Assembly (NCBI GenBank): GCA_963725795.1
Contig: CAVRZR010000003.1
Coordinates: forward strand, 112,362 to 176,361
Origin: an uncultured Actinomycetes bacterium
Lineage (GTDB): Bacteria > Actinomycetota > Coriobacteriia > Anaerosomatales > CAVRZR01
Reading direction: 5' to 3'
Length of the DNA stretch: 64,000 nt
Shown here: in pieces, positions 36,394-63,383 of the stretch
How positions within the stretch are numbered: position 1 is the stretch's first letter
How the letters are laid out: the number at the start of each line of letters is the position of its first letter
Notes under the pieces: model-generated
Databases searched by the model: none
What the model was told of the DNA's origin: nothing
The model's input: the letters and a program-made list of their open reading frames with translations, nothing else
Position numbers and translations under genes: made by a program

Positions 36394-38514
36394 TTATCCC
36401 GCACGCCTCAACGTTGCTAGCGCGCGTAGCAGTGTGCGCGTTCCGGCACTGCCGAAGTCGATCGTAACGCTGTCTTCGCCGGAGGCGATCACGACGCCGG
36501 CGCCCCAGCTCGCGTGGAAGACGCGGTCGCCCACTCCGAGCAGGTCTGTCGTGCCGACTTCGGAGGTCTCCATGTGTTGAACGGAGCCCAGCTCCTCGAG
36601 GAACCGAGTCGCGACGGCCTTCTTCGGGCTTTCGAGCTCGTCGGCGAGCTTGGAGACGGAGCGCGCGAGGCTGGCTACGACGTTGTCGCCCAGTTCCAGC
36701 ACGTCAGCCGGGTTCAGGCGTCGGACGATGTAGAGCCGCAGGGCGCTTCGCACGGCATCGAAGGCCCGCGCGAGCACCAGCGCTCCGCCGGGGCCCGCCG
36801 CCGCAAGGCAGCAGATGGCCGCCTCCGTTTGGCTGGAGCGACGGTTCGCGGTAAGGATGACCACCGCCGAGCCCACCAGCGAGTCGTCCGAATCGCTGAT
36901 CGCATCCGATGCGTTCTTGCGGATGGACTCGGTGATTCGGTCGGTGATCGCGACCAGGCACGCATTCATGACCGTGACCGTGGTCTCCGCATCCGCAGGG
37001 GCCCGCCAGGTGAAGGCGTCGAGCACCGCACCGGCGGCTTCGGCCGACAGACTCGATCCTTCATGGATCGCCTGTGCGACGAGCGGGGCGAAGGTCTTCG
37101 CGTTGACCTTGAGCCACGTGGCGAGTCGGGCGACAGACTCTGCGTCTTCGGCCACCAGAAGGCGCAGTGCCACCGCGTCCTCGAGTCCGGCTGCCTCTGT
37201 GCTGCCGGCTAGAACAGCGCCTGAGCCGGCAGTAGCGAGATCCAGGTTGAGCATTGCGTTACCTCCTCGGTTGGCGGAGCGGCCCTTGGCCACCGCCTTG
37301 TCGAGACGAGTACCGTGCGGGCGCTCGGTTGACGGCGCCTTCACCAGCTGGGGAAATGCGGCCAGCACCATGTCGACGAGCTGGTCGACAGGGCGCGTGA
37401 GAGCGTCGGTGGCCGGGATGCCGAGTTCGAGCTCGTACAGCGCGATCGCCGCGCTGACCTCGGCGTCGGACATCTCTTCGTGATTGACAGTCAGGCCGAT
37501 GACCCGGGTGTCGGAGAAGGTCTCGATGAGACGGATCTCGCTGGCGGGGTCCGGCATCGGGGCGTCCGGGAAGTCGGCACGTGTGCGACGTGCGGGGGCA
37601 TGCTGCAGGATCACGCCCTGGGGCTGGCTGCCGCGCAATATGAAGCCCGACGTCAGGTAGGCCGGATGACTCAGCGCACCCTGGCCCTCGATGACGATCA
37701 CGTCCGGCTTCACCGCTTCGTAGGCCTCGACGACCGTGGCTTCCATCTCACCGGCGCAGAACTGAGATGGGACGGCGTCGAGCGCAACCGCGTGACGGGC
37801 GCCTTGGATGAGGCCGGTTTGTCCCGTCGCAACCAAGACGGTCTTGATGCCGCGCTCGTTGAGCGCTCGCGTGAGTATCGTCGCCGTGGTGCGCTTTCCG
37901 ATCGCGCAGTCCGTGCCCATGACCGCGATGCGGGGGCAAGCGACCGTCGCGATGCGGCCGCTGAACGTTCGCAGGTCCCTCTTGCCGCGCGGACGGCGCA
38001 CATCCAGGATCGTCACGTCGTGTTTGTCGCTTGCCGCCGAGAACTCCGGGTCGTCGCCGAGGAACTCGTGAAGGCCGCTCACGACGTGCATACCACGCGC
38101 CATAGCGTCGAGTATCACGCCACGCTCGGCTTTCGAGAGCATACCGCTGGCCGGCGCGATCCCGTAGATCAGATAGTCGGGGACGCACCCTGCCAGTGCG
38201 ATCGCGTGCTCGAGGTCGGTGCAGATCGGCACGCCTTCGGACTTGTGACCGAGCACCTCATGGGCGTCGAGGCCCGACTGTGAGCTGTCGATCACCGAGA
38301 GGATCTCGTATCTCTCGGAGTGGCGTACCAGGCCGTTGGCGGTCTTTCCGTCGACAGCACCGAAGTTAGCTTCGCAGTAGACGATTGCAGTGCTTCGCGC
38401 GGGCGCAGGGGCGGGGAGTGGGGCGCGCGGCGGCGACAGAACCGTGAGCGCAGGCGCCGCGGGAGTGGGCGCCGAATGGAACGATCTGGTAGAAGTGGAA
38501 TGGACTTGAGCCAC
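36394..38514 (-). CDS. DUF1611 (DgcN-like) family protein, copy 2, fused to a C-terminal extension of about 300 aa
   Basis: ORF 36394..38514(-), 706 aa, with GTG start after GAGGAG. Residues about 40-400 are colinear with copy 1 (IVYCEANFGAVDGKTANGLVRHSERYEI, VMGTDCAIGKRTT). The extension ends with GDRVFHASWGAGVVIASGEDSVTIDFGSAGTRTLL. Confidence 0.75.
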   Translation of the reverse strand: MAQVHSTSTRSFHSAPTPAAPALTVLSPPRAPLPAPAPARSTAIVYCEANFGAVDGKTANGLVRHSERYEILSVIDSSQSGLDAHEVLGHKSEGVPICTDLEHAIALAGCVPDYLIYGIAPASGMLSKAERGVILDAMARGMHVVSGLHEFLGDDPEFSAASDKHDVTILDVRRPRGKRDLRTFSGRIATVACPRIAVMGTDCAIGKRTTATILTRALNERGIKTVLVATGQTGLIQGARHAVALDAVPSQFCAGEMEATVVEAYEAVKPDVIVIEGQGALSHPAYLTSGFILRGSQPQGVILQHAPARRTRADFPDAPMPDPASEIRLIETFSDTRVIGLTVNHEEMSDAEVSAAIALYELELGIPATDALTRPVDQLVDMVLAAFPQLVKAPSTERPHGTRLDKAVAKGRSANRGGNAMLNLDLATAGSGAVLAGSTEAAGLEDAVALRLLVAEDAESVARLATWLKVNAKTFAPLVAQAIHEGSSLSAEAAGAVLDAFTWRAPADAETTVTVMNACLVAITDRITESIRKNASDAISDSDDSLVGSAVVILTANRRSSQTEAAICCLAAAGPGGALVLARAFDAVRSALRLYIVRRLNPADVLELGDNVVASLARSVSKLADELESPKKAVATRFLEELGSVQHMETSEVGTTDLLGVGDRVFHASWGAGVVIASGEDSVTIDFGSAGTRTLLRALATLRRAG

Positions 38515-42886: not shown

Positions 42887-44162
42887 GTGCAAGTCTTGGT
42901 CATCAACTCGGGCTCGAGCTCGGTGAAGTTCGAGGTGTTCGCGATGGAACCGGAGCGCTGCCTCATTCGCGGAGAGGTCGAGGGCATCGGGGGCCAGGAC
43001 TCGGCCGTGTGGATCGAGCAGGCAGCCGACCCCGCGGCTCTCTGTGATTCCGAGGGCGCCGTGCGACAGGGAGCGGCCCGTGCCGGTTCGCGACCACACG
43101 GCGGCGTTCGAGGTGATACTCGATGTCCTTCAGACAGCCGAGGCGCCCGTCAACGTCGACGAGATCGGCGTCATCGGACACCGCGTCGTCCACGGAGGCG
43201 ACACCTTCTCTGGGCCCGTGCTCGTGGACGACGCGGCGCTCGACGGCATACGCGCGCTCGCCCTTCTCGCTCCTCTGCACGCCAACGCCAACGTAGCGGG
43301 GATCGAGGCCGCCCGGATGAGACTTCCGGGCGTTCCTCACGTCGCCGTCTTCGACAGCACGTTTCACCGCACGATGCCCGCGTACGTACGCGAATACGCG
43401 CTGCCCCGTGCGCTCGCGCGCGAACACGGCATACGCCGCTACGGCTTCCACGGGACGTCGCATGCCTACGTTGCCGTGCGGGCGGCGGCCATTCTCGGCC
43501 GGCCCCTGGAGCAGCTGCGGCTCGTCACACTCCACCTCGGGAATGGAGCGAGCGTGACCGCCATCCGCCACGGCGAGAGCGTTGACACGTCCATGGGTAT
43601 GACCCCGCTCGAGGGTCTCGTCATGGGGACTCGGTGCGGCGATGTCGACCCGGCCATCCCGATGCTTCTCGGTGAGATAACCGGTCGCTCGCGCGAGGAC
43701 GTGCATCGGCTCATGAACTTCGAGAGCGGACTCAAGGGCCTGTGCGGCGAGAGTGACATGCGCGGCGTGCACCGACTCGCCGAAAGCGGCCAGCAGGACG
43801 CCCTGCTCGCTCTCGAGATGTTCTGCTATCGAGCCAAGAAGTACATCGGCGCGTATTACGCCGCGCTCGGAGGGGTCGATGCCGTCGTCTTCACCGGCGG
43901 CATCGGCGAGAACGACGCCGACGTGCGTGGACGCATCTGCTCGGGGCTCGAGCGACTGGGCATCGAGATCGATGAGGCGGCGAATGCCGAGGCAAGCGGG
44001 GAATGCCTCATCAGCGGCCCGGATGGCGAGGTCGCCGTACTCGTCGTCCCCACCGACGAAGAGCTCGAGATCGCACGTGCGGCCTATGCGTGTGCCCGGG
44101 GTGGCGAGCAGTGCTCGACGCCGGAAACGAGAGGTGATCCACGTGACGCGCAACGAGACTGA
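42887..44162 (+). CDS. ackA: Acetate kinase, one frame disruption
   Basis: GTG 42887 gives [18 protein letters not shown]. The rest is in ORF 43044..44162 ([53 protein letters not shown]). The junction is near 43045-43090. Confidence 0.85.
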
Positions 44163-46528
44163 AGCGGACCGTCCGCTCTCTTCACGCGAATTGGCGGGCA
44201 TCGATGCGTATTGGCGTGCCGCCAACTACCTTTCGGTGGGCCAGATCTACCTGCTCGACAATCCGCTGCTCACTCGTCCGCTTGTGGCCGAAGACGTCAA
44301 GCCGAGGCTCCTTGGCCACTGGGGAACCACTCCGGGGCTGAACTTCATCTACGTGCACCTCAACAGGATCATCAACGCCTTCGATCTCGACATGATGCTC
44401 GTGACCGGGCCGGGGCACGGTGGTCCGGCGATCGTGGCGAACACCTGGCTCGAAGGGACCTACACGGAGCGTTACCCGGAGGTCTCGCGGGACGCGGACG
44501 GCATGCGTCGCCTCTTCAAGCAGTTCTCCTTTCCCGGAGGCATCCCGAGCCACGTTGCCGCCCAGATCCCCGGGTCCATCCACGAGGGCGGCGAGCTGGG
44601 CTACTCGCTCTCGCATGCGTTCGGAGCGGCCTTCGACAACCCCGACCTGATCGTCGCCTGCGTTGTCGGCGACGGCGAAGCGGAGACAGGGCCGCTGGCC
44701 ACGTCGTGGCATTCCAATAAGTTCCTGAACCCGCAGACGGACGGCGCCGTCCTGCCGATACTGCATCTCAACGGCTACAAGATCGCGAACCCGACCGTGC
44801 TCGCGCGCATACCCAAAGAGGATCTCGAGGCACTACTGATCGGCTACGGCTGGAGCCCCCGCTTCGTCGAGGGCGACGATCCGGAGCCGACTCACCAGGC
44901 AATGGCCGCAATCCTCGACGAGGTGGTTGGCGACATCCAGGATATCCAGCGTGAATGTCGCAGCGACAACGCTTGTGTCGCCCGTCGCTGGCCGATGATC
45001 GTGCTCAGGACGCCCAAAGGGTGGACCGGTCCCGACCGTGTCGACGGCCATCAGGTCGAAGGAACGTGGCGCTCCCATCAGGTGCCGGTCGACAAGGCGC
45101 GACAGAACCCGGCTCACCTTCGCGTCGTCGAGGAATGGATGCGTAGCTACCGCGCCGAGGAGCTCTTCGACGAATCCGGCGCACCCAGACCCGAGATCGC
45201 CGCGCTCGCGCCCCGCGGTACGCGCCGCCTGGGCGACAACCCTCATGCGAACGGCGGCATCGCTTCGTCGCGAGCTCAAGATGCCGGACTTCACCGACTA
45301 CGCCGTCGCCGTCCCCGAGCCCGGCCGGTCGACCGGTGAGGCCACGCGCGTGCTTGGGACGTTCCTTCGGGACATCATGGCCGCGAATATGGACCGCTTC
45401 AGGATATTCGGCCCGGACGAGACCGCGTCCAACCGTCTTGATGCGGTGTACGAGGTCAGCAAGAAGACGTGGCTTGCCGAGTACCTGCCCACCGACGCCG
45501 ACGGCGGGGAGTTGTCACCTGACGGTCGTGTGATGGAGCTCCTCTCGGAGACCACCTGTCTCGGCTGGATGGAGGGCTACCTGCTCAGTGGCCGACACGG
45601 ACTGTTCGGAACGTACGAGGCCTTCGTCCACATCATCGATTCGATGTTCGCCCAGCATGCGAAATGGCTGGACGTGAGCAAGAACGACGTGCCGTGGCGC
45701 GCCCCCGTCTCTTCGGCGAATTACCTGCTCTCCTCGCATGTATGGAGGCAGGACCACAACGGCTTCTCCCACCAGGACCCCGGCTTCATCGACATGGTGG
45801 TGAACAAGCGCGGCGATGTCGTCCGCGTGTACCTGCCGCCGGACGCGAACACGCTGCTTTCAGTTGCCGACCACTGCCTGCGCAGCACCGACTACGTGAA
45901 CGTGATCGTCGCGGGCAAGCAGCCCGCGCTTCAGTTTCTCGACATGGACGCCGCAGTGAAGCATTGCACGGCCGGCCTCGGCATCTGGGAGTGGGCGAGC
46001 AATGATCGGGGAGCGGAGCCGGACGTCGTGATGGCGTGCGCGGGCGACGTGCCGACGCTCGAGACGCTCGCCGCCGTCAGTCTCCTTCGGCAGGAGGCGC
46101 CCGACCTGAAGGTTCGGGTCGTGAACGTCGTCGACCTCATGACGCTTCAGCCCGCCGAGGAGCATCCGCACGGTCTGCCGGACAAGGAGTTCGACGAGAT
46201 CTTCACCACCGACAAGCCCATCATCTTCGCGTATCACGGCTATCCGTGGTTGATCCATCGGCTCACCTACAGGAGAAACAACCACGACAACCTTCACGTG
46301 CGCGGCTACAAGGAAGAAGGCACGACCACCACGCCCTTCGACATGGTCGTGCGCAACGATCTCGACCGATTCCACCTCTTCGCCGACGCCGTCGAGCGTG
46401 TGCCCTCGCTCGCGCCCAGGCGCGCCTATGTGAAGCAGTTCGTCCGCGATAAACTCATCGATCATCGCGAGTACATCGAGGAGTTCGGTGAGGATATGCC
46501 CGAGATCCGTGAATGGACGTGGGAGTGA
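44134..46528 (+). CDS. xfp: Xylulose-5-P / fructose-6-P phosphoketolase, one frame disruption
   Basis: ORF 43753..45339 from GTG 44134 or 44143 ([55 protein letters not shown]), then ORF 45038..46528. The junction is near 45262-45270 (NPHANGG / [10 protein letters not shown]). Confidence 0.9.
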
Positions 46529-47440: not shown

Positions 47441-48137
47441 ATGGACGCTGCCTCGGCACGCCGGCTGTTCGACGCGAACGCCGCTACGTACGATCGCATC
47501 AACACCGCCATCAGCTTTGGCCTCAGCTCACGTTGGTACGACTGGGCTGCCTCGGCGGCTCTCAAGTATCCGGGCGCTCGCGTGCTCGATGCCTTCTCAG
47601 GAACGGGGGCGGTGGGCATTCGCGTCGCCGAGAAAGGGGGCGACGTCACGCTGGCGGACGTGAGTCCCGAGATGCTCGACGTTGCCGCTGCCCGCGCACG
47701 AGAGGCCGGCGTGAGCGTTCGGGCGGTGCTGCAAGACCTGGCGGCCGACGACGTCCGGCCGGAGGGGGCGCTCTTCGATGCGGTAGTGGTCATGTGGGGT
47801 CTGCGCTACGTCGAGTATCCTGAATGCGTGATCGGCAACCTCGCACGTCTGCTAGCACCCGATGGCCACCTCGTGCTCGTCGAGTTCGTGGATCCGGACG
47901 AAGGAATCCTGTCGCGGCTTGCGGGGGTGTACTTCTTCCACGTTCTTCCTACGATCGCCCGCCTGCTGGGTGGGGACCGCAGGCTCTACAGCGAGCTTGT
48001 CCGGAGCACGAGACGCATGGGTCCTCCCGAGCGCCTGCTAGCCATGCGTCGAAAGGGCAGGATTGCAGAGCGTCGAGGTGCGACCGATGGGGTTCGGGCT
48101 CGTCCTTGGAGTGATCGCGCGCCGCGCGACGCCGTGA
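47441..48137 (+). CDS. UbiE/MenG-like class I SAM methyltransferase, one frame disruption
   Basis: ORF 47441..48355 (YDRINTAISFGLSSRWY, VLDAFSGTGAVG). The C-terminus AGLQSVEVRPMGFGLVLGVIARRATP is recovered in the next frame from about 48057 to TGA 48135-48137. Confidence 0.7.
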
Positions 48138-48173
48138 TCCGCGTCGGCACGCGCCTCGCTAGGCCCTGCGGGT

Positions 48174-48611
48174 ATGATGCTGCCTCGCACAGCCGGCTTC
48201 CTCGCACTCACCATGCTGGTGTTCCTCGGCCTGCAATCGCCAAGCGCCCTCGACTCCGTCTCGGCGGCGTCGAAGCCAGCTTCGGAGAAACGCGTCGTCT
48301 CGGCGTCTGCTCAGACGCCGAGCCTGGACGAGATCGATGTCCGCCTGGCGGGTGAGGCGCTCGCCGAGATGAAGGACACGTACGCCCATTTGGACGGCGT
48401 GACGGTGAGCGTAGGCGAGACTCCCCACGGCGAACAGGCCGTCGCCTACTACACGCAGGGCAGGATCTTGATAGACCGAGACCATACCGCGAGCATCCAG
48501 CGGATCCTCGCCCACGAGGTATGGCATGTCATCGATTGGCGTGTGAACGGGAAGATCGACTGGGGCGAGCAGCTGCCGCCAAGTAACGCAGACCTCTACG
48601 CCCTCGAGTAG
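48174..48611 (+). CDS. Small secreted protein with HExxH motif
   Basis: ORF 48174..48611. Signal peptide, and ILAHEVWHVIDW. Confidence 0.5.
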   Translation: MMLPRTAGFLALTMLVFLGLQSPSALDSVSAASKPASEKRVVSASAQTPSLDEIDVRLAGEALAEMKDTYAHLDGVTVSVGETPHGEQAVAYYTQGRILIDRDHTASIQRILAHEVWHVIDWRVNGKIDWGEQLPPSNADLYALE

Positions 48612-48658: not shown

Positions 48659-49252
48659 TTACTTAGCAAGCCAGTCGCTATGGACGACGGGTCCATACTC
48701 GTATGGCTGGTTCAGCCAGGACTCAGTGTACGGAGCGTAGGGCGACAGCCAGTTGGTGTGGACCACCGGCCCGAACTCGTACGGCTGGTTCTCAGTAGTG
48801 AATGGCGCGGACGGGGCGAGCCAGTTGGTGTGAACCACCGGCCCGTACTCGTACGGCTGATTCACCGTGAACGGCGCGGTCGGGACGAGCCAGTCGGTGT
48901 GGACCACCGGGCCGAACTCGTACGGCTGGTTCTCAGTGAACGATGCGGATGGCGCTAGCCAGTTCGTGTGTACGACAGGTCCGAACTCGTACGGCTGATT
49001 CTCGGTGAACGGCGCGGCAGGCGCGAGCCAGTTGGTGTGTACCACCGGCCCGAACTCGTACGGCTGGTTCTCCGTGAACGGCGCGGACGGGGCGAGCCAG
49101 TCGGTGTGCACGACGGGCCCGGTCTCGTAGGGCTGGGATTCAGACGCTAAAGCGAAGGGTACGCTTCCCAGCATGAACATCGCGCCCAACACGAGCGCGA
49201 CACCGACCAGGGAAGCCCTCCGCAATGCCCTTACTCGGTATGCGGGTTTCAT
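48659..49252 (-). CDS. Secreted tandem-repeat protein, 7 x about 23 aa (consensus ENQPYEFGPVVHTNWLAPSAPFT)
   Basis: ORF 48659..49273(-). ATG 49250-49252 follows GGAGGTG. An N-terminal signal/anchor helix is followed only by repeats. No family recognised. Confidence 0.7.
   Translation of the reverse strand: MKPAYRVRALRRASLVGVALVLGAMFMLGSVPFALASESQPYETGPVVHTDWLAPSAPFTENQPYEFGPVVHTNWLAPAAPFTENQPYEFGPVVHTNWLAPSASFTENQPYEFGPVVHTDWLVPTAPFTVNQPYEYGPVVHTNWLAPSAPFTTENQPYEFGPVVHTNWLSPYAPYTESWLNQPYEYGPVVHSDWLAK
48662..49141 (-). repeat. 69-bp in-frame tandem repeat array (7 units)
   Basis: The DNA-level periodicity is visible directly (ccagttggtgtg.accaccggcccgaactcgtacggctggttctc recurring). All units are in one reading frame. 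Confidence 0.85.
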
Positions 49253-49393
49253 CGTAGACACCTCCAAACTCACTTGATTTCGTATGTAGTTTCCAACCAG
49301 TGCATTCCCTCGTATTCGAACCTAAGCGGAATGACGACCGAACACTCGGGTACAACATATCGACAGGCGATATCGCGAGCTGAGGACGTGCGG

Positions 49394-49900
49394 ATGATGC
49401 CTCCGACGGACATATTCGTTGGTGAACTCGAGGTTAGGACTCGGGAGCACAAGGTATATGTGCGCGGCGAGGAGATCCCGCTCTCTTCGCGCGAATTCGA
49501 GATCGCTGCGATGCTTGCCGAGCACCCTGGATGGGTTCTCTCGGCGGAACAGCTGGCCGGCGACGCCAAGACCGGCGAAGGCTACTCCCCCGAGTCGGTA
49601 AGCGTGTTGGTCTCGCGGATTCGGCACAAATTGGCTGCGGCAGGTGCGGATCACCTGGTCGAGACGGTGCGCGGGGTCGGATACAGGCTGCGGGCGGCCC
49701 GAGCCGCGGAACCCGAGGATGTCGGTGAGCTCGAGGATCCGGACGCAACTCAGGCAAACGCTCAGCTGAGAGACGCCTCGTGGCAGCTGCAGGAGAGCCT
49801 CATCGACGTCGAGCGAACGTGCAACCCCCTACAGCGGCGGGCGGTGGCCGACGTTCTTGACCGGACACGCCAGGCCATACGGGACATCCTCTCCGAGTAG
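49394..49900 (+). CDS. Winged-helix (OmpR/CadC-type trans_reg_C) DNA-binding protein without a receiver domain
   Basis: ORF 49274..49900. ATG 49394 follows GAGGA. Motifs LSSREFEIAAMLAEHPGWVLSAEQL, VSRIRHKL and VETVRGVGYRL. Divergent from the repeat-protein gene. Confidence 0.75.
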   Translation: MMPPTDIFVGELEVRTREHKVYVRGEEIPLSSREFEIAAMLAEHPGWVLSAEQLAGDAKTGEGYSPESVSVLVSRIRHKLAAAGADHLVETVRGVGYRLRAARAAEPEDVGELEDPDATQANAQLRDASWQLQESLIDVERTCNPLQRRAVADVLDRTRQAIRDILSE

Positions 49901-50072
49901 CCCGAGAATCCGCAGTTCAGCGCGCTGAACGAAGCCGACGGTTAACTGCGCGTGCGCCCGTTCGGCGGCTTCCACACGATTGCCATCGACTCGGCTTCAT
50001 GTTGGCTCAGGAATTGCGCTTCTGGCCTCGGATAACCATGCGCTCTCGCAAGTGATCGGAAGTGCGGCTCTA

Positions 50073-51731
50073 ATGCGTTTCGGGCGTTTCCATGGACCTG
50101 CTTCTCTAACCACGCTCGCGGCGATCGCGTTCGCGGCGTTCTGGCTGCTCACCGCCTCCCCAGCGCTGGCCCTCACGCCGCACGAGGCGCCTTCGGCTGA
50201 CACGTTCATATGCGCCGCCTGCCACTCATTGCACGCGGCCACGGACGCAGCACTACTTCGAGCGGCGGCCGGCCCCGACCGGATCACAGCGACGTGCGTG
50301 TCGTGTCATGCGGGCACAACGTCGGTGGCCAGCGATGTCTTCTCAGGTGAGCAGAACGCCTTCGGCCTGGGCAGCGGGCATTCGTTGGAGCCCACAGTCA
50401 CGGGGGGCGCGGAGATTCGGGGTTGCGGCACGTGCCACGATCCTCACGGGGCTAGCTCCGAGGTGCGCAACATACCGGCGAAGCGGATCAACGACGTTTC
50501 GGTGACCACGGCGGGCATCGAGCTCTGTGTAAGCTGCCATGACGCGCAGAACTCCTGGTACGGTGCCGACTACCCGTCGACGGCGCTGCCTGCTCGCGAC
50601 GCGACGGGCTATCCCACGACAGGCACGTGGCCGGGACCCGCGACCTACTCATCCGAGGCCAACCCTCACCGCCTCATCCCCGAATCCACTCAGACCGTTG
50701 GCGTGAGCGAGCCGGTTCGGCGTCAGCAGGGCGACTGTCTGTACTGCCATGCCTCGCACCGGGGACCGAATGCCTACGACGGTCTGGTCCAGTCATTCAC
50801 CGTTCCAACGACATCGACGTTGACCGCGGACCAGGCCGAGGGGTCGTACGCCGCTCTGTGCCTCAGCTGCCACGGGGAGGCCGGCGCCTCACTGCTGGGC
50901 ACGGCGGTCGCCAACATCGCGCAGTTCGCTACGGGGAGCGGAACGGCGGGACATCGGATTGAGACATCGGGTGGCCTGTTGCCTGTCGGAGCGCCGCTTC
51001 CGTGTTTCGAGTGTCACAACCCCCACGGCTCACAGCGAGGAAACGCGTCCCTGATATCGGACGAGCGGGGCGCTTCGCTTGCAACCACCGACGCCCCCAA
51101 GGTTCGCGCGTTCTGCTTCACATGCCACACGACAAGCGATTCCGGCGCTGGCTGGGACAGCGACGCGGCTACCTACACCGTGGTCGGTGACGAGCAGAAG
51201 GTCGTCGGCTTGTCTCGCACCGATGGACTCCTTCACCTGTCATCGGCCACCGGGCATGCGCAGTCCGATGCTGAGTCGTGCCACGAATGCCACGGCGACT
51301 CCTACGCGACGGGCGGAAGCAACGTCCACAACCCGGCGCCCGGCCCCGTGCTCCTGCTGACCCTGCCGGCCTCGCTCTCGAGCGAGCTGCCGACGGGCAG
51401 CGTGGATGCCACGAGCGGTCTCATAGTGGGTTCGATCGACGCGACCGCGTCTGCCGACTCTCTGGGAGCCACCGCTCCGGCACCTGCGATCGAGCCAACG
51501 GCATCGGCGTCGACTGACGCCAGTGCGACGCCCGAGTCTATCGTAGGCAGTCCGTCGGTGGATTCGACTGGTCCGCCACCCGACAATCCACTGCCGGTTG
51601 ACCCGACTGTGCCCTTGCAGCCGGACACCTCGTTTGCACTCACGGGGACCGTAGGCGCGCTTGCGCTCTCGCGGCCTCGGCGACGGTCTTCGCGCGACGA
51701 ACACGACGAGGCCGACCCTCCGGCACCCTAA
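50073..51731 (+). CDS. Secreted multiheme c-type cytochrome (9 CxxCH) with Ser/Thr/Pro-rich tail
   Basis: ORF 49980..51731. ATG 50073 gives a signal peptide (..ASPALALTP). Heme motifs are CAACH, CVSCH, CGTCH, CVSCH, CLYCH, CLSCH, CFECH, CFTCH and CHECH. The C-terminus reads FALTG, then a short hydrophobic stretch, then RPRRR. Confidence 0.8.
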   Translation: MRFGRFHGPASLTTLAAIAFAAFWLLTASPALALTPHEAPSADTFICAACHSLHAATDAALLRAAAGPDRITATCVSCHAGTTSVASDVFSGEQNAFGLGSGHSLEPTVTGGAEIRGCGTCHDPHGASSEVRNIPAKRINDVSVTTAGIELCVSCHDAQNSWYGADYPSTALPARDATGYPTTGTWPGPATYSSEANPHRLIPESTQTVGVSEPVRRQQGDCLYCHASHRGPNAYDGLVQSFTVPTTSTLTADQAEGSYAALCLSCHGEAGASLLGTAVANIAQFATGSGTAGHRIETSGGLLPVGAPLPCFECHNPHGSQRGNASLISDERGASLATTDAPKVRAFCFTCHTTSDSGAGWDSDAATYTVVGDEQKVVGLSRTDGLLHLSSATGHAQSDAESCHECHGDSYATGGSNVHNPAPGPVLLLTLPASLSSELPTGSVDATSGLIVGSIDATASADSLGATAPAPAIEPTASASTDASATPESIVGSPSVDSTGPPPDNPLPVDPTVPLQPDTSFALTGTVGALALSRPRRRSSRDEHDEADPPAP

Positions 51732-59205: not shown

Positions 59206-60780
59206 CTACGTCTGGCGCCCGGCCCTGCGCCGAGCCACCGAGCGCTCGTGCTCTCCGGGCAGCGGGCACGTGTTCGGACCCTCAACGAGGGCTCTGCACC
59301 TCGTGTCGATCCCCTTCAGGATTCCGCCGAAGACGAAGTGGTGGAACGGCTTCACCGAATACCAGTACGCGCGCCCCAGCACGCCTTTCGCGTCGAACAG
59401 CGCCGTCTGGCGGACCAAGGTCCGATCGCCGCGGGTCGCGAGTTCGTACTGCAGCCACCCTCGGCCGGGCAACACCATCTCGGCTCGGAGTCGCAGCAGC
59501 CTGGGCGAATCGACACGCTCGACGACCCACCACTCGAGATGATCGCCCTCCACGAGCGCGTACGGATCGCGCCGACCGCGTCGCCTTCCCGGCCCGCCGA
59601 GAAGCAGATCGATGAAGCCTCGCAGATCCCACAGGGTGTCGTAGGCGTACCATCCGTTCTCGCCGCCGATGCACGCGACCGGATCGAATGCGGCTTCGGG
59701 AGGGCAGTCCACGAGCATGGCTCGCGAATCGACGTACCTCCCTTCGCGCACCGGGTGTTGAGGTGCGGCAGAGTCGCCGAGTTCGTCCACCCACATGATT
59801 CGATCGAACAGGGCGTCCTCGGCCTCGAACGCGCGGTGCATCGCCTCCTCGGCGCCGATAGGCTTCACCTGCGGGAAGTCACGCGAGGCTGAATCATCGG
59901 TCACAACCGTCGGGAATCTGAGCGACTCTGCGAGCTGCCGTCCCACTGTCGCTTGTTTGGGCGTGAAGAGGTAGAGCCACCAGCCGGAAAGCCCTGGAGA
60001 CAGGATCGGCACCGGGATGATGAGTCGCCTCAGTCCGCGCCGCGCCGCATAGAGAGCCAGCAGCCCCCCGTACGTGACTATGTCAACGCCGCCGATCTCG
60101 TAGATGCGGTGCGCCTCGTCGGGATCGAGTTCGAGGTCGATAGCCGCGAGCAGGTACGAGACGACGTCGGCGATCGCGATCGGCTGGGCAGGCATCCGCA
60201 CCCAGCGCGGAGTCGTCATGACGGGCAGCTTTTCAGTGAGATTCCGAATCATCTCGAACGACGTGGAGCCACTGCCGATCACGATGGACGCGCGGAACTC
60301 GACGACCGGCACGCCGGTCTCGGACAGGATCCGCCCCACTTCCTGACGGCTGGCCAGGTGCTCCGAGAGCACGTCTCGCTCTTGCCCGAGCCCGCCCAGG
60401 TATACGATGCGCCGCACGCCGGCGGCCGCCGCTTCCTCCGCGAAGATCCGTGCGGCCGTTCGGTCGCGGGCGGCATAGTCGGCGCCTGCACCGAGCGTGT
60501 GCACCAGGTAGAACGCCGTGTCGACGGTCTCGAGCGCCGAGCGCACGGCAGCTCGGTCCATGACGTCCACCGTGACGAGCTCGACTCCCGGCATCGCCGG
60601 TACCCGCGACGTGTGTCGCGCTGCCGCTCGAACGCGATAGCCGTCCGATGCGAGACGCGGCAGGACGTGCGAGCCGATGTAGCCCGACGCTCCCATGACG
60701 AGCACCACCGAACCGGCCCCGTCTACCAACACGATCCTCCCCGACCGCGAACGGGTTGCTTCATCACGCATTTCCGTCAA
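59206..60780 (-). CDS. NAD(P)-binding (NmrA/atypical SDR) domain fused to a DUF2867-like domain
   Basis: ORF 59206..60780(-). VLVMGASGYIGSHV Rossmann motif and a C-terminal half of about 200 aa typical of DUF2867 partners. Confidence 0.65.
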   Translation of the reverse strand: MTEMRDEATRSRSGRIVLVDGAGSVVLVMGASGYIGSHVLPRLASDGYRVRAAARHTSRVPAMPGVELVTVDVMDRAAVRSALETVDTAFYLVHTLGAGADYAARDRTAARIFAEEAAAAGVRRIVYLGGLGQERDVLSEHLASRQEVGRILSETGVPVVEFRASIVIGSGSTSFEMIRNLTEKLPVMTTPRWVRMPAQPIAIADVVSYLLAAIDLELDPDEAHRIYEIGGVDIVTYGGLLALYAARRGLRRLIIPVPILSPGLSGWWLYLFTPKQATVGRQLAESLRFPTVVTDDSASRDFPQVKPIGAEEAMHRAFEAEDALFDRIMWVDELGDSAAPQHPVREGRYVDSRAMLVDCPPEAAFDPVACIGGENGWYAYDTLWDLRGFIDLLLGGPGRRRGRRDPYALVEGDHLEWWVVERVDSPRLLRLRAEMVLPGRGWLQYELATRGDRTLVRQTALFDAKGVLGRAYWYSVKPFHHFVFGGILKGIDTRCRALVEGPNTCPLPGEHERSVARRRAGRQT

Positions 60781-63157
60781 GACCGTGCCCGCCGAACGCG
60801 TTGCGCAGCGCCGTCAGCACACGGCCGGTGTAGCTCGGCTTCTTGAAGCTGTCGATCCTGAACCGCAAGGCGGTCTCGATGCCGGGCACGGGCAGGCCCG
60901 CATCGCGCGCCGCGTCAACGGTCCACTCGCCCTCGCCCGTGTGGCGTACCGTGCCAGATACGGCCTCGAGATCGTCCCCCAGTGTCGCGTACGCGTCGCG
61001 GAGCCATCCCATCAGGCGCGACTGAACGACGCTGCCGTGCTGGTAGATGTCTGCGACTCGCCTAAGGTCGAGTTCGTACGGACCGTCGTGCATGAGCGCA
61101 AAGCCGTCGGCGACCGCCTGCATCATCCCGTACTCGATACCGTTGTGGACCATCTTCACGAAATGGCCTGCGCCGATGCCGGGGAAATGCGCGTAGCCGC
61201 CGGGGACCGACACGTCGGCGAGCATCGGCTCGAGCCGCTCGAAGTCCTCTCGGCTGCCGCCGAGCATGAGACACGCTCCGTGCCGTGCGCCGGCCGGGCC
61301 ACCGCTCGTGCCGCAATCAACGAAACGGATGCCTCGCTCTCCCAGTCGCGCGGCACGCTGCCCCGCACTGGAGAAGTGGCTGTTGCCACCGTCGACGATG
61401 GTGTCCCCAGGCTCCAACACGTCCGCGAGCCCAGGCACGTGCTCCCCGTCTTCACCTGCTTTGCCGAATAGCATGTCGTCCACCGCGGCACCGGCGGGCA
61501 CCATGACCCATACGATGCGTGGAGCGGGTAGCAGCGCCGCCACGTCGGCCATCGTGCGCGCAGCGATGATGCCCTCGGCCTCCATCGCCTCCGCACGCGA
61601 CGTCGTCCGATTGAAGGCGACGACACGCCAGCGGTGAGCGTGAAGATTGCGCGCCAGCCCTGCACCCATCTTGCCGAGGCCCACGATGCCGACCGAGCGC
61701 TGCGCTGTCGCCGATCGGCTCGAGATCGCCGCCGCGGCGCGATCGGCAATGTCCGGGCAACCGTGTTCGTACGTCTCGAGCGGCACGACTCCGTCACGCC
61801 AGGCCTCAACGATCGGGTCGACGAACCGCCAGCCAGCTTCAATCTCCGCCGAAGAGACGAAGAGCGTCTGATCTCCTCGGAAGGCGTCATACAGCAGCCG
61901 CGCGTATTCCTCGACGTATTGCGCCTTCTCGCCCTTCTCGTAGAGGAAGAACGAAAGCGTGTGCTCCTCGACCTCGGACGAGAAACCGGGCTTCTTGCTG
62001 TAGAAGACGATCTCGATCGATTCCGCCGGCTCCAGCGAGAACACGATCCTGTTTGGATACCGCTGCTCGGGCTCGCAGAGGCACAGCGGCGGCTGCCGGA
62101 ACCGCACAACGATCCGTTTGTCGGGAGTACCGACGGCCTTTCCCGACTCCATCATCACCGGCACGCCGGCCCAGCGCTCGCCGCGCAGCTCGGTCTCGAG
62201 GCGATAGTAGGTCTCGCTTTGCGAGTCCGGCGCGACCCCCTCGGCGGCCAGATAGCCCTCGTACTGAGCTCGGAAGGTGCAGCGAGCGACCTCACCCGGC
62301 GTCATCGGGCGGAGTAGAGTCTCCATCGCCGCCGCCCGCGCTGCACGGATGTCCAGCGCATGCTTCGAGGACGGTTGCTCCATGGTGACGAGCGCCAGCA
62401 TCTCCAGCAGGTGGTTCTGGCCGACATCGCGCAGCGCGCCCATCCGGTCGAAGGAGGGACCCCGGCTGCCGACGTCGACGCGCTCGAGCAGCGAGATGTC
62501 GATGCGCTCGATGGCCTGGCGGTTCCACTCGGCCTCGAACAGGTTGTTCGTGAACCGGAAGTCCATGATGCCCTGGAGCATCTCCTTGGCGAGGTAGTGG
62601 TCGATGAAGTACGTCTGTTCCTCACGGAGCAGTTCGTTGACCCGCGTGACGAGTTGCTTGCTCGAGTCCTCGTCGACGCCGAGCGGCTTCTCGATCAGGA
62701 CGCGGGTCCACCCCGTCAGGTCGCTGCATGGTGCCGAGAGGCCCTGGGCGGCGAAGCCTTCAAGGATGTCGAGGTAACTCGACGGCGGGACGGCGAGGTA
62801 GAAGAGCTTGTTCGTGCACAGCCCCCACTCCTCATCTATCGACTTCAGGTAGAGGGAGAGGCGGCCGTAGGAGTCGGGCTTCATCAGATCGCCGTCGAAG
62901 TAGCGGAAGAGGTCGAGGAACTTGCTGCTGGCCCCAGGAGTCTCTTCGGGGCTCTTCTCGGCGAGGAGTCCGCCGACGTATTCCCGCAAGCGTGCATCGT
63001 CCCAGCCGCGACGCCCGAAGCCGACGATACAGGTGCGGTCGGGCAGCAAGTCCCGCGAGAACAGGTGGTGGAGCGAGGGCACGATCTTTCGCCTCATCAG
63101 GTCTCCGGTCGCGCCGAAGACCACGAGGATGGTGGGGGACATCTCTTGGCCGGGCAT
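60764..63157 (-). CDS. zwf: Apparent fusion of glucose-6-phosphate dehydrogenase (Zwf) and short-form 6-phosphogluconate dehydrogenase (Gnd/YqeC-like)
   Basis: Single frame ORF 60764..63310(-). N-terminal half: VVFGATGDLMRRKI, EKPLG, IDHYLAKE. A linker of about 15 aa follows. C-terminal half: VGIVGLGKMGAGLARNL, VDGGNSHF, CGTSGGPAGARHGACLMLGG, GAGHFVKMVHNGIEYG. No stop or start codon lies between the halves. ATG 63155-63157 follows AGGAG. Confidence 0.75.
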   Translation of the reverse strand: MPGQEMSPTILVVFGATGDLMRRKIVPSLHHLFSRDLLPDRTCIVGFGRRGWDDARLREYVGGLLAEKSPEETPGASSKFLDLFRYFDGDLMKPDSYGRLSLYLKSIDEEWGLCTNKLFYLAVPPSSYLDILEGFAAQGLSAPCSDLTGWTRVLIEKPLGVDEDSSKQLVTRVNELLREEQTYFIDHYLAKEMLQGIMDFRFTNNLFEAEWNRQAIERIDISLLERVDVGSRGPSFDRMGALRDVGQNHLLEMLALVTMEQPSSKHALDIRAARAAAMETLLRPMTPGEVARCTFRAQYEGYLAAEGVAPDSQSETYYRLETELRGERWAGVPVMMESGKAVGTPDKRIVVRFRQPPLCLCEPEQRYPNRIVFSLEPAESIEIVFYSKKPGFSSEVEEHTLSFFLYEKGEKAQYVEEYARLLYDAFRGDQTLFVSSAEIEAGWRFVDPIVEAWRDGVVPLETYEHGCPDIADRAAAAISSRSATAQRSVGIVGLGKMGAGLARNLHAHRWRVVAFNRTTSRAEAMEAEGIIAARTMADVAALLPAPRIVWVMVPAGAAVDDMLFGKAGEDGEHVPGLADVLEPGDTIVDGGNSHFSSAGQRAARLGERGIRFVDCGTSGGPAGARHGACLMLGGSREDFERLEPMLADVSVPGGYAHFPGIGAGHFVKMVHNGIEYGMMQAVADGFALMHDGPYELDLRRVADIYQHGSVVQSRLMGWLRDAYATLGDDLEAVSGTVRHTGEGEWTVDAARDAGLPVPGIETALRFRIDSFKKPSYTGRVLTALRNAFGGHGLDGNA

Positions 63158-63383
63158 GGGGCTCCTGCTCGTCGAAGGGACGCGCGGGCGCGAGGGATCC
63201 CTGCTCGCGCGGAAACAGTCACTGCGGATTCTTCCCATTGTCCTTGTGCGACGTTGCCGACGAGTCCAGGGACCGCACCCAACGCCGACATCCAGCGCAG
63301 TGCGGGACAATCAGCGGATTGCGGGGACAATAACGGAAGCGCCCCGCGGGGCTGAGGATCAGGCGACGGATTCGGGGTGGACG

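What the first reader, a model, noticed from the sequence alone, without database searches (positions are those of the whole stretch)
48659..49252. Secreted protein built from seven near-identical 23-aa repeats (ENQPYEFGPVVHTNWLAPSAPFT) with no family I recognise
After one signal/anchor helix the whole protein is seven tandem units, each with invariant QPYE-GPVVH--WL and one His, one Trp and one or two Tyr/Phe. The repeats are also near-identical at the DNA level (69-bp period). That implies recent expansion or homogenisation, and probably copy-number variation. The gene is divergently paired with a receiver-less winged-helix regulator. It is flanked by a small secreted HExxH protein on one side and a 9-heme cytochrome on the other. 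The conserved His and aromatic residues in every unit next to an extracellular multiheme cytochrome suggest a metal-, heme- or surface-binding scaffold. That is pure speculation.
Basis: partly seen in the sequence, partly recalled or inferred. Interest (0 to 1): 0.7.

Follow-up and report, generated by a model that had tools for sequence, protein, structure and literature searches.

The report
Orphan secreted repeat-protein gene cassette
This is a real gene for an exported protein made of seven 23-residue repeats, from an undescribed small-protein family that uncultured anaerobic actinobacteria nearly always encode beside a tiny exported zinc-protease-like protein and, in most loci, an orphan regulator, often next to multiheme cytochromes; its function is still unknown.

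Summary
The gene is real. ORF 48659-49252(-) has a Shine-Dalgarno site and a Sec-type signal peptide. It carries seven units, QPYE[FYT]GPVVH[TS][DN]WL..AP[FY]T, six full and one truncated.

The units are not near-identical in DNA. They are 77-86% identical, with dS about 0.75, dN about 0.10, and a longest exact repeat of 32 bp. That indicates old copies under purifying selection, not recent expansion or an assembly artefact.

Nothing matches in Pfam, NCBIfam, PDB, PADLOC or the literature. Profile searches recover about 80 relatives of 66-137 aa, all unannotated, from metagenomes and from Coriobacteriia or 'Actinomycetes' MAGs. The window protein is the longest.

Comparative loci show a self-contained cassette:
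- An exported minimal zincin-fold HExxH protein lies convergent to the repeat gene, in 12 of 14 loci.
- A receiver-less OmpR-type regulator lies divergent to it, in 10 of 14 loci.
- The shared promoter region holds a rigidly spaced conserved DNA block.

Non-orthologous multiheme cytochrome genes lie within 2 kb in 5 of 10 lineages.

The repeat His is not conserved across the family (R, H, P, G, S, K and others), so the heme/metal-ligand idea gains no support.

My best reading is that the protein is an extracellular partner, probably the substrate, of the co-encoded protease, within a regulated envelope programme linked to cytochrome-based respiration. Confidence is moderate to low.

The parts
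48659..49252 (-). CDS of the exported tandem-repeat protein (197 aa; stop at 48659-48661)
   Evidence: The ORF is intact, with an SD site GGAGGTG 8 nt before the ATG. Homologues have the same architecture.
49145..49252 (-). Sec-type signal peptide (residues 1-36; predicted cut after ...FALA)
   Evidence: Read from the sequence: a basic n-region (R6, R8, R11, R12), a hydrophobic core and AxA. All family members have an equivalent N-terminus. No predictor was run.
48662..49135 (-). Array of seven units. Unit boundaries: 49135-49067, 49066-48998, 48997-48929, 48928-48860, 48859-48788, 48787-48710, 48709-48662.
   Evidence: Units are 77-86% identical in nucleotides, with dN/dS about 0.14.
48174..48611 (+). 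Exported minimal zincin-fold HExxH protein (145 aa; HEVWH encoded at 48513-48527), convergent with the repeat gene
   Evidence: Present next to the repeat gene in 12 of 14 loci. H114, E115, H118, D121, D129 and E132 are invariant. The AF2 model has pLDDT above 90 over the domain. The top Foldseek hits are selecase, IrrE and abylysin, followed by MMPs and collagenases.
49394..49900 (+). Receiver-less OmpR/PhoB-type winged-helix regulator (about 168 aa; the mechanical ORF begins at TTG 49274), divergent from the repeat gene
   Evidence: Trans_reg_C scores E 4e-17 and there is no receiver domain. Orthologues at 50-57% identity sit in the same position in 10 of 14 loci. Homologues start at the MMPPTD position, and a stop codon lies upstream in L004.
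49302..49356 (.). Conserved cis-element in the divergent promoter region: a dyad around TTCGAA, then GAAyAyTCGGGTAC exactly 30 bp from the dyad centre
   Evidence: The nine-locus alignment shows invariant columns. The spacing is identical in 9 of 9 loci. The motif is unique in the window. There is no RNA-structure signal.
49980..51731 (+). Exported multiheme cytochrome c with nine CxxCH motifs. It is an associated neighbour, not a core cassette gene.
   Evidence: Matches Paired_CXXCH_1 and MtrC/MtrF domains II/IV. It is the only ORF with at least three CxxCH motifs in the 64 kb. Non-orthologous multiheme genes recur near the cassette elsewhere.

Best explanation
The ORF encodes a Sec-exported, acidic protein (pI about 4.4) that is rich in Pro and aromatic residues. 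It is the longest known member of an undescribed family of small exported repeat proteins found in uncultured anaerobic Actinomycetota, related to Coriobacteriia.

It is the middle gene of a self-contained three-gene cassette. The divergently encoded orphan OmpR-type regulator probably binds the conserved dyad and GGGTAC block in the shared promoter region, and so controls the repeat gene and itself. The convergently encoded exported minimal zincin most likely acts on the repeat protein outside the cell, either processing it or removing it.

On this reading the repeat protein is an extracellular or cell-wall-surface component. Its level is set by regulated synthesis and by dedicated proteolysis. 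The cassette would be part of an envelope programme that often accompanies cytochrome-based extracellular respiration.

Shown here:
- the gene and its export signal;
- selection on each unit;
- the family;
- conservation of the cassette;
- the zincin fold of the partner protein;
- the conserved cis-element;
- the recurrent cytochrome neighbourhood.

Inferred:
- that the protease's target is the repeat protein;
- that the regulator binds the block;
- the physiological role.
For: The gene is real and its units are constrained. It has an SD site, a signal peptide and an intact frame, and dN/dS between units is about 0.14.

The family is coherent. About 80 proteins share the architecture of a signal peptide followed by PY.xGPV[VI] repeats.

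The cassette is conserved:
- An all-against-all comparison of flanks from 14 loci finds only three recurrent gene families: HExxH in 12 loci, repeat in 11 or more, regulator in 10. Gene order and orientation are the same throughout.
- Both partner proteins carry signal peptides, so they meet outside the cell.

The partner protein looks like a peptidase:
- HExxH and downstream acidic residues are invariant.
- The AF2 model is confident.
- Its structural neighbours are all zincin peptidases. Selecase is the top hit with probability 0.99 and rmsd 2.8 A over 76 columns.
- 11 of 23 members give subthreshold Pfam hits to the HExxH domain eCIS_core/DUF4157.

The regulator has a plausible binding site. 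A 55-bp conserved block with fixed 30-bp spacing lies between the divergent starts and occurs only there in the window.

Cytochrome link:
- A multiheme gene lies within 2 kb in 5 of 10 lineages, and the genes are mostly non-orthologous.
- P is at most 0.03 even at one such gene per 30 kb. Cultivated Anaerosomatales carry 17-18 per genome of about 2 Mb (PMC9686372).
Against: - No experiment or co-fold links the protease to the repeat protein. Adjacency alone cannot separate substrate, inhibitor, chaperone or merely co-regulated neighbour.
- The repeat gene occurs without either partner within 10 kb in two MAG loci, L002 and L003. It occurs with the HExxH gene but without the regulator in L005 and L017.
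- The Foldseek E-values for the zincin fold are 0.02 or weaker, and the third metal ligand is not identified.
- The regulator has no recognisable sensor domain, so the input signal is unknown.
- Half of the lineages show no cytochrome within the flanks available.
Confidence: 0.45

Rival explanations
1. The protein is a self-assembling structural protein. Each 23-residue unit forms one coil of a beta-solenoid, with stacked Tyr/Phe/Trp/His and Asn/Gln ladders. The protein would form, or nucleate, a surface fibre, adhesin or matrix, as a curli-like functional amyloid in a Gram-positive. The protease would be only a maturation or dispersal factor, or unrelated.
For: - Single-sequence AF2 gives three short strands per unit (VVHT, FTE, YEF), with pLDDT 70-80 across units 1-5 and pTM 0.53.
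- The weak Foldseek matches are mostly beta-solenoids: pentapeptide-repeat proteins, tailspikes and the CAP C-terminal domain.
- In-register invariant residues under purifying selection fit ladder packing.
- Cultivated OPB41 Coriobacteriia make pili-like appendages, in one strain only when grown on ferrihydrite (PMC9686372). This is a lead only.
Against: - Only one of the five AF2 models reached mean pLDDT 65; the others were about 50. No Foldseek hit has E below 1.
- The mature protein is 16% Pro.
- Most family members have only 2-5 units of 14-16 residues (PYAPYTAGPVV plus an acidic spacer). That is too short and too Pro-rich for a monomeric solenoid.
- There is no Curlin_rpt or chaplin match.
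Confidence: 0.2
2. The protein is a multi-copy precursor. After export, the mini-zincin cuts the array into identical 13-23-residue peptides that act as signals or bioactive peptides. This would resemble yeast alpha-factor or neuropeptide precursors. The rapid divergence of the peptide would give strain specificity.
For: - Across the family an invariant core alternates with variable, often charged spacers (REEFR, RSTE, ETR).
- Unit number varies from 2 to 7, while the units within one protein stay alike.
- A dedicated exported peptidase and a divergently transcribed, probably autoregulated, regulator are the usual ingredients of peptide-signalling cassettes.
- The repeat gene evolves much faster than its two partners.
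Against: - The regulator is cytoplasmic, about 160 aa, with only a winged helix and a short helical tail. It has no TPR or other peptide-binding domain.
- The cassette contains no kinase and no permease.
- The window protein has no spacers or recognisable cleavage sites between units.
- No modifying enzyme is conserved nearby.
Confidence: 0.15
3. The conserved His and aromatic residues of each unit bind heme, iron or another metal. The protein would then be a cofactor-binding or mineral-binding scaffold working with the neighbouring extracellular cytochrome.
For: - The mature protein is acidic, with 7 His, 11 Tyr, 8 Trp and 16 Asp/Glu.
- A 9-heme cytochrome is the next gene but one, and multiheme genes recur near the cassette in 5 of 10 lineages.
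Against: - The His position is not conserved across the family: R in 82 units, H in 73, P in 38, G in 14, S in 13, K in 8. The closest homologue has Lys in every unit.
- There is no Cys and no CxxCH.
- There is no match to any metal-binding or heme-binding family.
- Half of the lineages have no cytochrome nearby.
Confidence: 0.07
4. It is not a functional gene. It would be a chance ORF across a DNA tandem repeat, or an array whose copy number is an assembly artefact.
For: - The window contains frameshifted genes: the phosphoketolase is split over two frames. Indel errors or pseudogenes therefore exist here.
- The product is absent from the large protein collection although its neighbour is present.
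- Two homologues, in L001 and L003, are disrupted.
Against: - The gene has an SD site, a signal peptide and an uninterrupted 594-nt frame.
- Synonymous changes far exceed non-synonymous ones between units.
- About 80 homologues share the architecture, in a conserved gene order.
- The antisense frames are broken by stops.
- The longest exact repeat is 32 bp, so each unit can be placed uniquely.
Confidence: 0.02

Closest known systems
Curli subunit CsgA and other functional-amyloid repeat proteins (FapC, chaplins)
   Same: These are small exported proteins made of imperfect tandem repeats of about 20-23 residues, with Gln/Asn at the unit edges. The model predicts strand-turn-strand coils stacked into a beta-solenoid. 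The structural gene is divergently transcribed from a dedicated regulator.
   Different: - There is no sequence match to Curlin_rpt or chaplin domains.
- The protein is 16% Pro, and the model has three strands per coil rather than two.
- The host is probably a monoderm.
- There are no CsgB/E/F/G-type partners; the partner here is an exported mini-zincin.
- The solenoid itself is only weakly predicted.
Multi-copy secreted peptide precursors (yeast alpha-factor, fungal Kex2-processed repeat precursors such as ustiloxin UstA, multi-repeat Phr propeptides of Bacillus). This comparison rests on my own knowledge.
   Same: The shared features are a signal peptide followed by tandem copies of one short peptide, a variable copy number, spacers in most family members, and a dedicated protease.
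   Different: - There are no dibasic or otherwise recognisable cleavage sites.
- There is no modifying enzyme, and no receptor or permease.
- The regulator lacks a peptide-binding domain.
- The window protein has no spacers.
Minigluzincins (selecase, proabylysin, projannalysin), compared with the HExxH partner protein
   Same: Both have a catalytic-domain-only zincin scaffold of about 95 residues: a helix, a three-stranded sheet and an HExxH helix. Selecase is the best Foldseek hit (4qhi; probability 0.99; rmsd 2.8 A over 76 columns) and abylysin (4jiu) is also listed.
   Different: - Sequence identity is 18-20% and the E-values are only 0.02-0.4.
- The protein here has a signal peptide and an Ala/Ser/Pro-rich linker.
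- It has its own invariant tail, IDWRDNG..DW.E.LPP.N.
- The third metal ligand and the activity are unknown.
DUF4157 / eCIS_core 'PVC-metallopeptidase' domain
   Same: This is a short HExxH domain of unknown role that accompanies other proteins (PMC8213781). It is the most frequent Pfam hit of the partner family, in 11 of 23 members.
   Different: All hits fall below the gathering score (best E 0.007; the window protein scores 14.3 bits against a threshold of 22). No contractile-injection genes are present, and the protein here is Sec-exported.
Orphan OmpR/PhoB-type winged-helix regulators (SARP-like, ToxR/CadC-like), compared with the regulator
   Same: It has a Trans_reg_C DNA-binding domain without a receiver. 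It sits next to its probable target, with a conserved upstream element.
   Different: It has no BTAD/TPR domain as in SARPs, and no transmembrane segment or periplasmic sensor as in ToxR/CadC. It has only a conserved helical tail of about 55 residues.
Erp (exported repetitive protein, PGLTS repeats) of mycobacteria. This comparison rests on my own knowledge.
   Same: It is an actinobacterial Sec-exported protein whose centre is a Pro-rich tandem repeat of unknown function.
   Different: The repeat motif is unrelated. Erp has a C-terminal hydrophobic domain and no protease/regulator cassette. No similarity was detected in any search.

Membership tests
Any described cell-wall-binding, S-layer or other repeat family (Pfam-A, NCBIfam) | A profile match at or above the curated threshold | tested here: not met
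   The window protein has no family with E below 0.09. Ten family segments were scanned individually and gave only scattered chance hits. The PDB sequence search gave nothing with E below 0.3.
Curli / functional amyloid (CsgA-type) | Curlin repeat signature | tested here: not met
   There is no Curlin_rpt hit.
Curli / functional amyloid (CsgA-type) | CsgB/E/F/G-type accessory genes nearby | tested here: not met
   The only recurrent neighbours are the HExxH protein and the regulator.
Curli / functional amyloid (CsgA-type) | Beta-solenoid stacking of the repeats and fibre formation | tested here: inconclusive
   The single-sequence AF2 model shows three strands per unit, but mean pLDDT is 65 and the other four models are near 50. 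The Foldseek matches to solenoids have E above 1. Fibre formation cannot be tested here.
RiPP multi-core precursor | A leader peptide recognised by a co-encoded modifying enzyme (rSAM, P450, YcaO, MNIO and similar) that is conserved next to the precursor | tested here: not met
   No enzyme family recurs in the flanks of the 14 loci. Radical SAM genes appear in only three loci, 1-4 kb away. The N-terminus is a Sec signal, not a leader.
RRNPP-type peptide signalling cassette | A regulator with a TPR peptide-binding domain | tested here: not met
   The regulator has only Trans_reg_C and a short tail.
RRNPP-type peptide signalling cassette | A small exported propeptide gene next to the regulator | tested here: met
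   The adjacency of an exported small protein is present.
Zincin metallopeptidases (minigluzincin-like), for the partner protein | An invariant HExxH on a helix packed against a mixed sheet | tested here: met
   H114, E115 and H118 are invariant in 23 sequences. In the AF2 model (pLDDT above 90) HExxH lies on helix 108-125, after three strands. The structural neighbours are zincins.
Zincin metallopeptidases (minigluzincin-like), for the partner protein | An identified third zinc ligand | tested here: inconclusive
   D121, D129 and E132 are invariant candidates. None could be assigned.
Zincin metallopeptidases (minigluzincin-like), for the partner protein | Peptidase activity | not testable with these tools
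   Testing this needs recombinant enzyme and substrate.
DUF4157 / eCIS_core | A Pfam gathering score and an eCIS locus context | tested here: not met
   The window protein scores 14.3 bits against a cut-off of 22. The best family member has E 0.007. There are no tail-like genes in the flanks.
OmpR/PhoB response regulators, for the regulator | C-terminal winged-helix (Trans_reg_C) | tested here: met
   Trans_reg_C scores 62 bits, above threshold.
OmpR/PhoB response regulators, for the regulator | N-terminal receiver domain | tested here: not met
   There is no Response_reg hit. NCBIfam two-component models align only over their C-terminal thirds, far below their cut-offs.
c-type heme or His-ligated cofactor-binding proteins | A CxxCH motif or a family-wide conserved ligand residue | tested here: not met
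   The mature protein has no Cys. The His position varies across the family and is Lys in P0001.

The most novel reading that the evidence does not exclude
The seven in-register units stack Tyr, Phe, Trp and His into continuous aromatic ladders on an exported beta-solenoid. This protein would be a cell-wall-spanning or extracellular partner of multiheme cytochromes in Gram-positive metal-respiring Actinomycetota. It could be a non-heme scaffold or an electron-hopping conduit, or the subunit of the ferrihydrite-induced appendages seen in cultivated relatives. A dedicated exported mini-zincin and an orphan regulator would switch it on and off.
Probability: 0.07. Interest if true: 0.9.

Novelty: categorically new. 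Interest (0 to 1): 0.62.

Why it matters
The repeat protein belongs to no described family. It has no solved or annotated relative among billions of sequences, and its motif returns no paper. Yet it is clearly under selection, and it sits in a conserved three-gene cassette that has not been described: an exported repeat protein, an exported minimal zincin and an orphan winged-helix regulator with a fixed cis-element.

The cassette is confined, as far as the data go, to uncultured anaerobic Actinomycetota. These organisms carry many multiheme cytochromes, and the cassette lies beside such genes far more often than chance allows.

How monoderm bacteria organise cytochromes and reach minerals across a thick wall is an open question. 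A small, easily expressed trio of genes gives a concrete handle on a possible envelope component of that process.

Even if the cytochrome link is only neighbourhood, two things remain useful:
- the pair of repeat protein and 95-residue exported zincin is an attractive minimal protease-substrate system;
- both families are candidates for new database entries.

'Categorically new' here refers to the family and the cassette. Whether the function is new cannot yet be told.

Tried and rejected
- The sequence search of 5.8 billion proteins with the whole protein returned one hit only. The family appeared only after the exhaustive representative search and a profile of repeat segments. About two thirds of the hits were unrelated eukaryotic repeat proteins and were discarded by eye.
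- The PDB sequence search and Foldseek with the repeat model gave nothing significant.
- No match was found in plasmids, viral contigs or PADLOC. The one PHROG hit (22 bits, no stretch passing on its own) was treated as chance. The cassette is therefore not evidently mobile, viral or defensive.
- tblastn with the window's cytochrome found no orthologue near other cassettes. I first read this as 'cytochrome not conserved'. That was revised after counting CxxCH-rich ORFs.
- The operator-like motif was sought elsewhere in the window, for example upstream of the cytochrome or the HExxH gene, and was not found.
- An RNA-structure reading of the conserved intergenic block was rejected. The consensus energy is -4.5 kcal/mol and the covariation term is +0.19. 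There is no Rfam hit in the region.
- An N-terminally longer regulator (TTG 49274) was rejected, because the upstream similarity is DNA conservation and L004 has a stop codon in that frame.
- The consensus promoter and terminator scans found nothing.
- Taxonomy of the window could not be established. The exact-sequence lookup of the window's HExxH protein found no contig on record, and the cluster lookup gave no names. Only relatives are labelled, as 'uncultured Actinomycetes bacterium' and 'Coriobacteriia bacterium'.
- Literature searches for the motifs and for the cassette's ingredients found nothing relevant.
Full report
**1. The observation**

The minus-strand ORF 48659-49273 is intact. 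Its ATG at 49252 is preceded by GGAGGTG at a spacing of 8 nt. The 197-aa product starts with a basic stretch, a hydrophobic helix and ...FALA|SES. I read this as a Sec signal peptide from the sequence; no predictor was run.

The rest of the protein is seven units beginning QPYE. Their periods are 23, 23, 23, 23, 24 and 26 aa, and the last unit is truncated to 16 aa. Q, P, Y, E, G, P, V, V, H, W and L are invariant in all seven. Tandem Repeats Finder reports the 69-bp period (6.0 copies, 81% matches) and a 207-bp super-period. The plus-strand frames across the array are broken by stops.

The mature protein is 161 aa with pI 4.4. It contains 25 Pro, 11 Tyr, 9 Phe, 8 Trp, 7 His, one Lys and no Cys.

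**2. The repeats are old, not recent**

- The six full units are 77-91% identical in protein but only 77-86% identical in DNA.
- Most Pro, Gly, Val, Leu, Thr and Ala codons differ at the third position.
- There are 98 synonymous against 57 non-synonymous codon differences. Nei-Gojobori estimates average dS 0.75 and dN 0.10.
- The longest exact repeat in the array is 32 bp.

Each unit is therefore held by purifying selection, and the copies are not young. A collapsed or expanded assembly is unlikely.

One caveat applies. The window does contain frameshifted genes, for example the phosphoketolase split over two frames. Small indel errors cannot be excluded in general, although this ORF is uninterrupted.

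**3. No known family, but a family exists**

Pfam, NCBIfam, PADLOC, PDB sequences and Foldseek gave nothing significant. Literal motif searches of about 8 million papers gave nothing.

A word-indexed search of 5.8 billion proteins returned one relative, P0001. In that protein every unit has Lys where the window protein has His. The exhaustive search of 1.84 billion representatives added a handful of true relatives among unrelated eukaryotic repeat proteins. A profile of repeat segments (A1) then recovered 77 proteins.

All of these proteins are 66-137 aa. All have an N-terminal signal peptide, none has a Pfam domain, and almost none has a name. Labelled sources are 'Coriobacteriia bacterium' and 'uncultured Actinomycetes bacterium' MAGs.

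The common denominator is PY.xGPV[VI], usually as PYAPYTAGPVV followed by a short, variable, often acidic spacer.
- Many members also share D(Q/E)(F/Y)GG just after the signal peptide.
- Many end in an aromatic-x-x-R/K tail.
- Periods range from 13 to 27 residues, with a mode of 14-16.
- Unit number ranges from 2 to 7. The window protein has the most units and is the longest.
- The residue after GPV[VI] is R in 82 units, H in 73, P in 38, G in 14, S in 13 and K in 8, with others rarer.

The window's own product is missing from the collection although its neighbour P0101 is there, from a 592,725-bp contig. The ORF is therefore probably not called in the public record.

**4. A conserved three-gene cassette**

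I examined the surroundings of relatives in 18 loci. The arrangement seen in the window recurs: the HExxH gene convergent with the repeat gene, and the repeat gene divergent from a Trans_reg_C-only regulator. It is found in L004, L007, L008, L009, L010/L011, L012, L013, L014/L015, L016 and L018. It is also found, as far as the contig reaches, in L006.

An all-against-all comparison of every ORF within 7 kb in 14 loci found just three gene families shared by many loci: HExxH in 12, repeat in 11 or more, and regulator in 10. A few minor neighbours also recurred (RidA in 4 loci, polysaccharide deacetylase in 3).

The partners are well conserved. The HExxH proteins are 48-66% identical to the window's and the regulators are 50-57% identical. 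The repeat gene changes motif, period and copy number.

There are exceptions. L005 and L017 have the HExxH gene but no regulator. L002 and L003 have the repeat gene alone, and in L003 it is disrupted.

In four lineages the 3' ends of the HExxH and repeat genes overlap by 16-22 nt. In the window they are 47 bp apart.

**5. The HExxH partner**

Twenty-three homologues align with invariant T83, P84, Y93, H114, E115, W117, H118, D121, W122, G126, D129, W130, E132, P135 and P136. Each has a signal peptide and a low-complexity linker before a domain of about 95 residues.

AF2 with this alignment gives pLDDT above 90 over residues 50-125. The model has a helix, three strands and the HExxH helix.

The Foldseek neighbours in the PDB are selecase (probability 0.99, E 0.02, rmsd 2.8 A over 76 columns), IrrE/PprI and abylysin, followed by MMPs, collagenases, SprT/Spartan and deuterolysin. 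The list is dominated by zincin peptidases, although no E-value is below 0.001.

Pfam gives only subthreshold hits to HExxH domains: eCIS_core/DUF4157 in 11 of 23 members, plus SprT-like and DUF2268. DUF4157 is itself an HExxH domain of unknown role (PMC8213781).

I conclude that the partner is an exported minimal zincin-fold protein and very probably a metallopeptidase. Its third ligand and its activity are undetermined.

**6. The regulator and its probable site**

The regulator has an OmpR/PhoB winged helix (62 bits) and no receiver. Homologues of 153-179 aa begin at the position of MMPPTD (ATG 49394), which has GAGGA upstream. In L004 a stop codon lies in frame upstream. The longer TTG ORF is therefore not the protein.

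Between the divergent starts, nine loci share a block with invariant columns. It consists of an imperfect dyad, GTTGCC-N6-TTC|GAA-N6-GGCAAC, matching at 7-15 of 16 positions. This is followed by yGAAyAyTCGGGTAC, and the GGGTAC lies exactly 30 bp from the dyad centre in all nine loci. In the window this block is 49302-49356.

The 14-nt core occurs nowhere else in the 64 kb. RNAalifold finds no structure or covariation, and Rfam finds nothing there. I therefore read the block as a protein-binding and promoter element. That the regulator binds it is an inference.

**7. The cytochrome neighbourhood**

The window contains a single ORF with at least three CxxCH motifs in 64 kb. It is the 9-heme protein that starts 80 bp after the regulator.

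Elsewhere:
- A 4-heme C554-like gene follows the regulator in L014/L015.
- A 17-heme gene abuts the HExxH gene in L018.
- Three multiheme genes lie 1.7-4.3 kb away in L016.
- An 8-heme NapC/NirT-type gene lies 1.7 kb away in L010/L011.
- One lies 9 kb away in L004.
- None is seen in the available flanks of L007, L009/L013, L012 or L005/L017.

Apart from one pair, these cytochromes are not orthologous. The adjacency is therefore not simply inherited synteny.

Five of ten lineages have one within 2 kb. The binomial probability of that is 1e-4 at one gene per 110 kb, which is the density in cultivated Anaerosomatales (17-18 genes in 1.8-2.1 Mb; PMC9686372). It is still 0.03 at one gene per 30 kb. 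This is a rough test that ignores phylogeny. It is suggestive, not conclusive.

**8. Structure of the repeat protein**

Single-sequence AF2 gave one model with mean pLDDT 65 (70-80 over units 1-5; pTM 0.53). It has three short strands per unit, a beta-solenoid-like stack. The other four models were near 50. The Foldseek matches were mostly solenoids but had E above 1.

The short, Pro-rich units of most relatives do not look like solenoid coils. I treat the solenoid as possible for this seven-unit member and unproven.

**9. What it most likely is**

The firmest statement is genetic. This is the variable middle gene of a self-contained cassette, and its two other products are an exported zincin-fold protein and a DNA-binding regulator.

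Two exported proteins that are kept together across wide divergence, with one evolving fast and the other a protease-like enzyme, most simply form an enzyme-substrate or enzyme-ligand pair. The regulator and the fixed cis-element would provide control of synthesis. I therefore commit to the following, with confidence of about 0.45: the protein is an extracellular or wall-surface repeat protein that is processed or removed by its dedicated protease, and the cassette is part of an envelope programme often co-located with multiheme cytochromes.

The rivals are:
- a self-assembling solenoid or fibre subunit (0.2);
- a multi-copy peptide precursor (0.15);
- an artefact (0.02).

The first two rivals overlap with the main reading and could both be partly true.

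One lead from my own knowledge was not tested. AP(Y/F)T in Pro/Ala-rich exported actinobacterial proteins resembles O-mannosylation sites.

**10. Comparison with known systems and novelty**

In outline the protein works like a curli-type repeat subunit or an alpha-factor-type multi-copy precursor. The partner looks like a minigluzincin, and the regulator like an orphan OmpR-family protein. Every membership test for the repeat protein failed or was inconclusive (see the table). No paper, profile library or structure covers it. The cassette as a unit is undescribed, as far as these searches reach.

I rate the family and the cassette as categorically new. The function itself is unknown and could turn out to be a variant of a familiar theme.

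**11. Limits**

- No taxonomic placement of the window was possible.
- The genome and metagenome scans used patterns biased to the His-containing subtype. The cassette's true distribution is therefore under-sampled.
- Many relatives sit on contigs of 1-3 kb.
- All functional statements beyond sequence, fold and gene order are inference.

Noticed in passing
window 43753-46528: The phosphoketolase is split over two overlapping reading frames. XFP_N lies in ORF 43753-45339; XFP and XFP_C lie in ORF 45038-46528. This implies a frameshift near 45.3 kb, either a pseudogene or an indel error. The adjacent acetate kinase ORF (43044-44162) lacks the first 52 or so profile positions.
   Followed up: partly
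window 47441-48355: The UbiE-type methyltransferase ORF carries an Arg-rich, junk-like tail of about 90 aa. The tail overlaps the start of the HExxH gene (48174) by 182 nt. A frameshift or a lost stop is likely.
   Followed up: no
window 51600-51731 (C-terminus of the 9-heme cytochrome): After a long Pro/Ser/Thr-rich region the cytochrome ends ...SFALTGTVGALALSRPRRRSSR.... This resembles an LAxTG-type sortase sorting signal, although the hydrophobic stretch is only 8 residues. A sortase gene lies 4.5 kb from the cassette in L012. If real, the cytochrome would be anchored to the cell wall.
   Followed up: no
window 48659-49252: The window's own repeat protein is absent from the 5.8-billion-protein collection. 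Its neighbour P0101 (the HExxH protein) is present, from a 592,725-bp contig. The ORF seems not to have been called in the public record.
   Followed up: partly
L010 6272-6290; L012 2816-2837; L014 5315-5336; L018 5279-5294: The convergent HExxH and repeat genes overlap at their 3' ends by 16-22 nt in four lineages. Elsewhere there are gaps of 10-64 nt. This may mean antisense or transcriptional coupling between the two genes.
   Followed up: no
L001 25-516; L003 9857-10200: The closest homologue's array (L001, a 516-bp contig at 4x coverage) is interrupted by frameshifts and then resumes, so it has at least five units. The stand-alone homologue in MAG locus L003 is broken by stop codons.
   Followed up: partly
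L010 6272-6697: In one cassette the middle gene has drifted to a different repeat, KPFAPYTEKYAGTDNIAPHVPE. It keeps only APYT and the DxFGG-like start, while both partner genes stay conserved. This shows how fast the middle gene evolves.
   Followed up: partly
L005, L016, L017, L018 (flanks): A RidA-family gene (Ribonuc_L-PSP) recurs within a few kb of the cassette in four loci. DUF1611 lies next to the regulator in L018 and 12 kb away in the window (36394-38514).
   Followed up: no
window 60764-63310: A single 848-aa ORF carries both glucose-6-phosphate dehydrogenase and 6-phosphogluconate dehydrogenase domains. It is either a fusion or two genes merged by an error.
   Followed up: no
window 20058-20150: A tRNA-Ser (CGA) is the only RNA gene that Rfam and ARAGORN find in the window.
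   Followed up: yes
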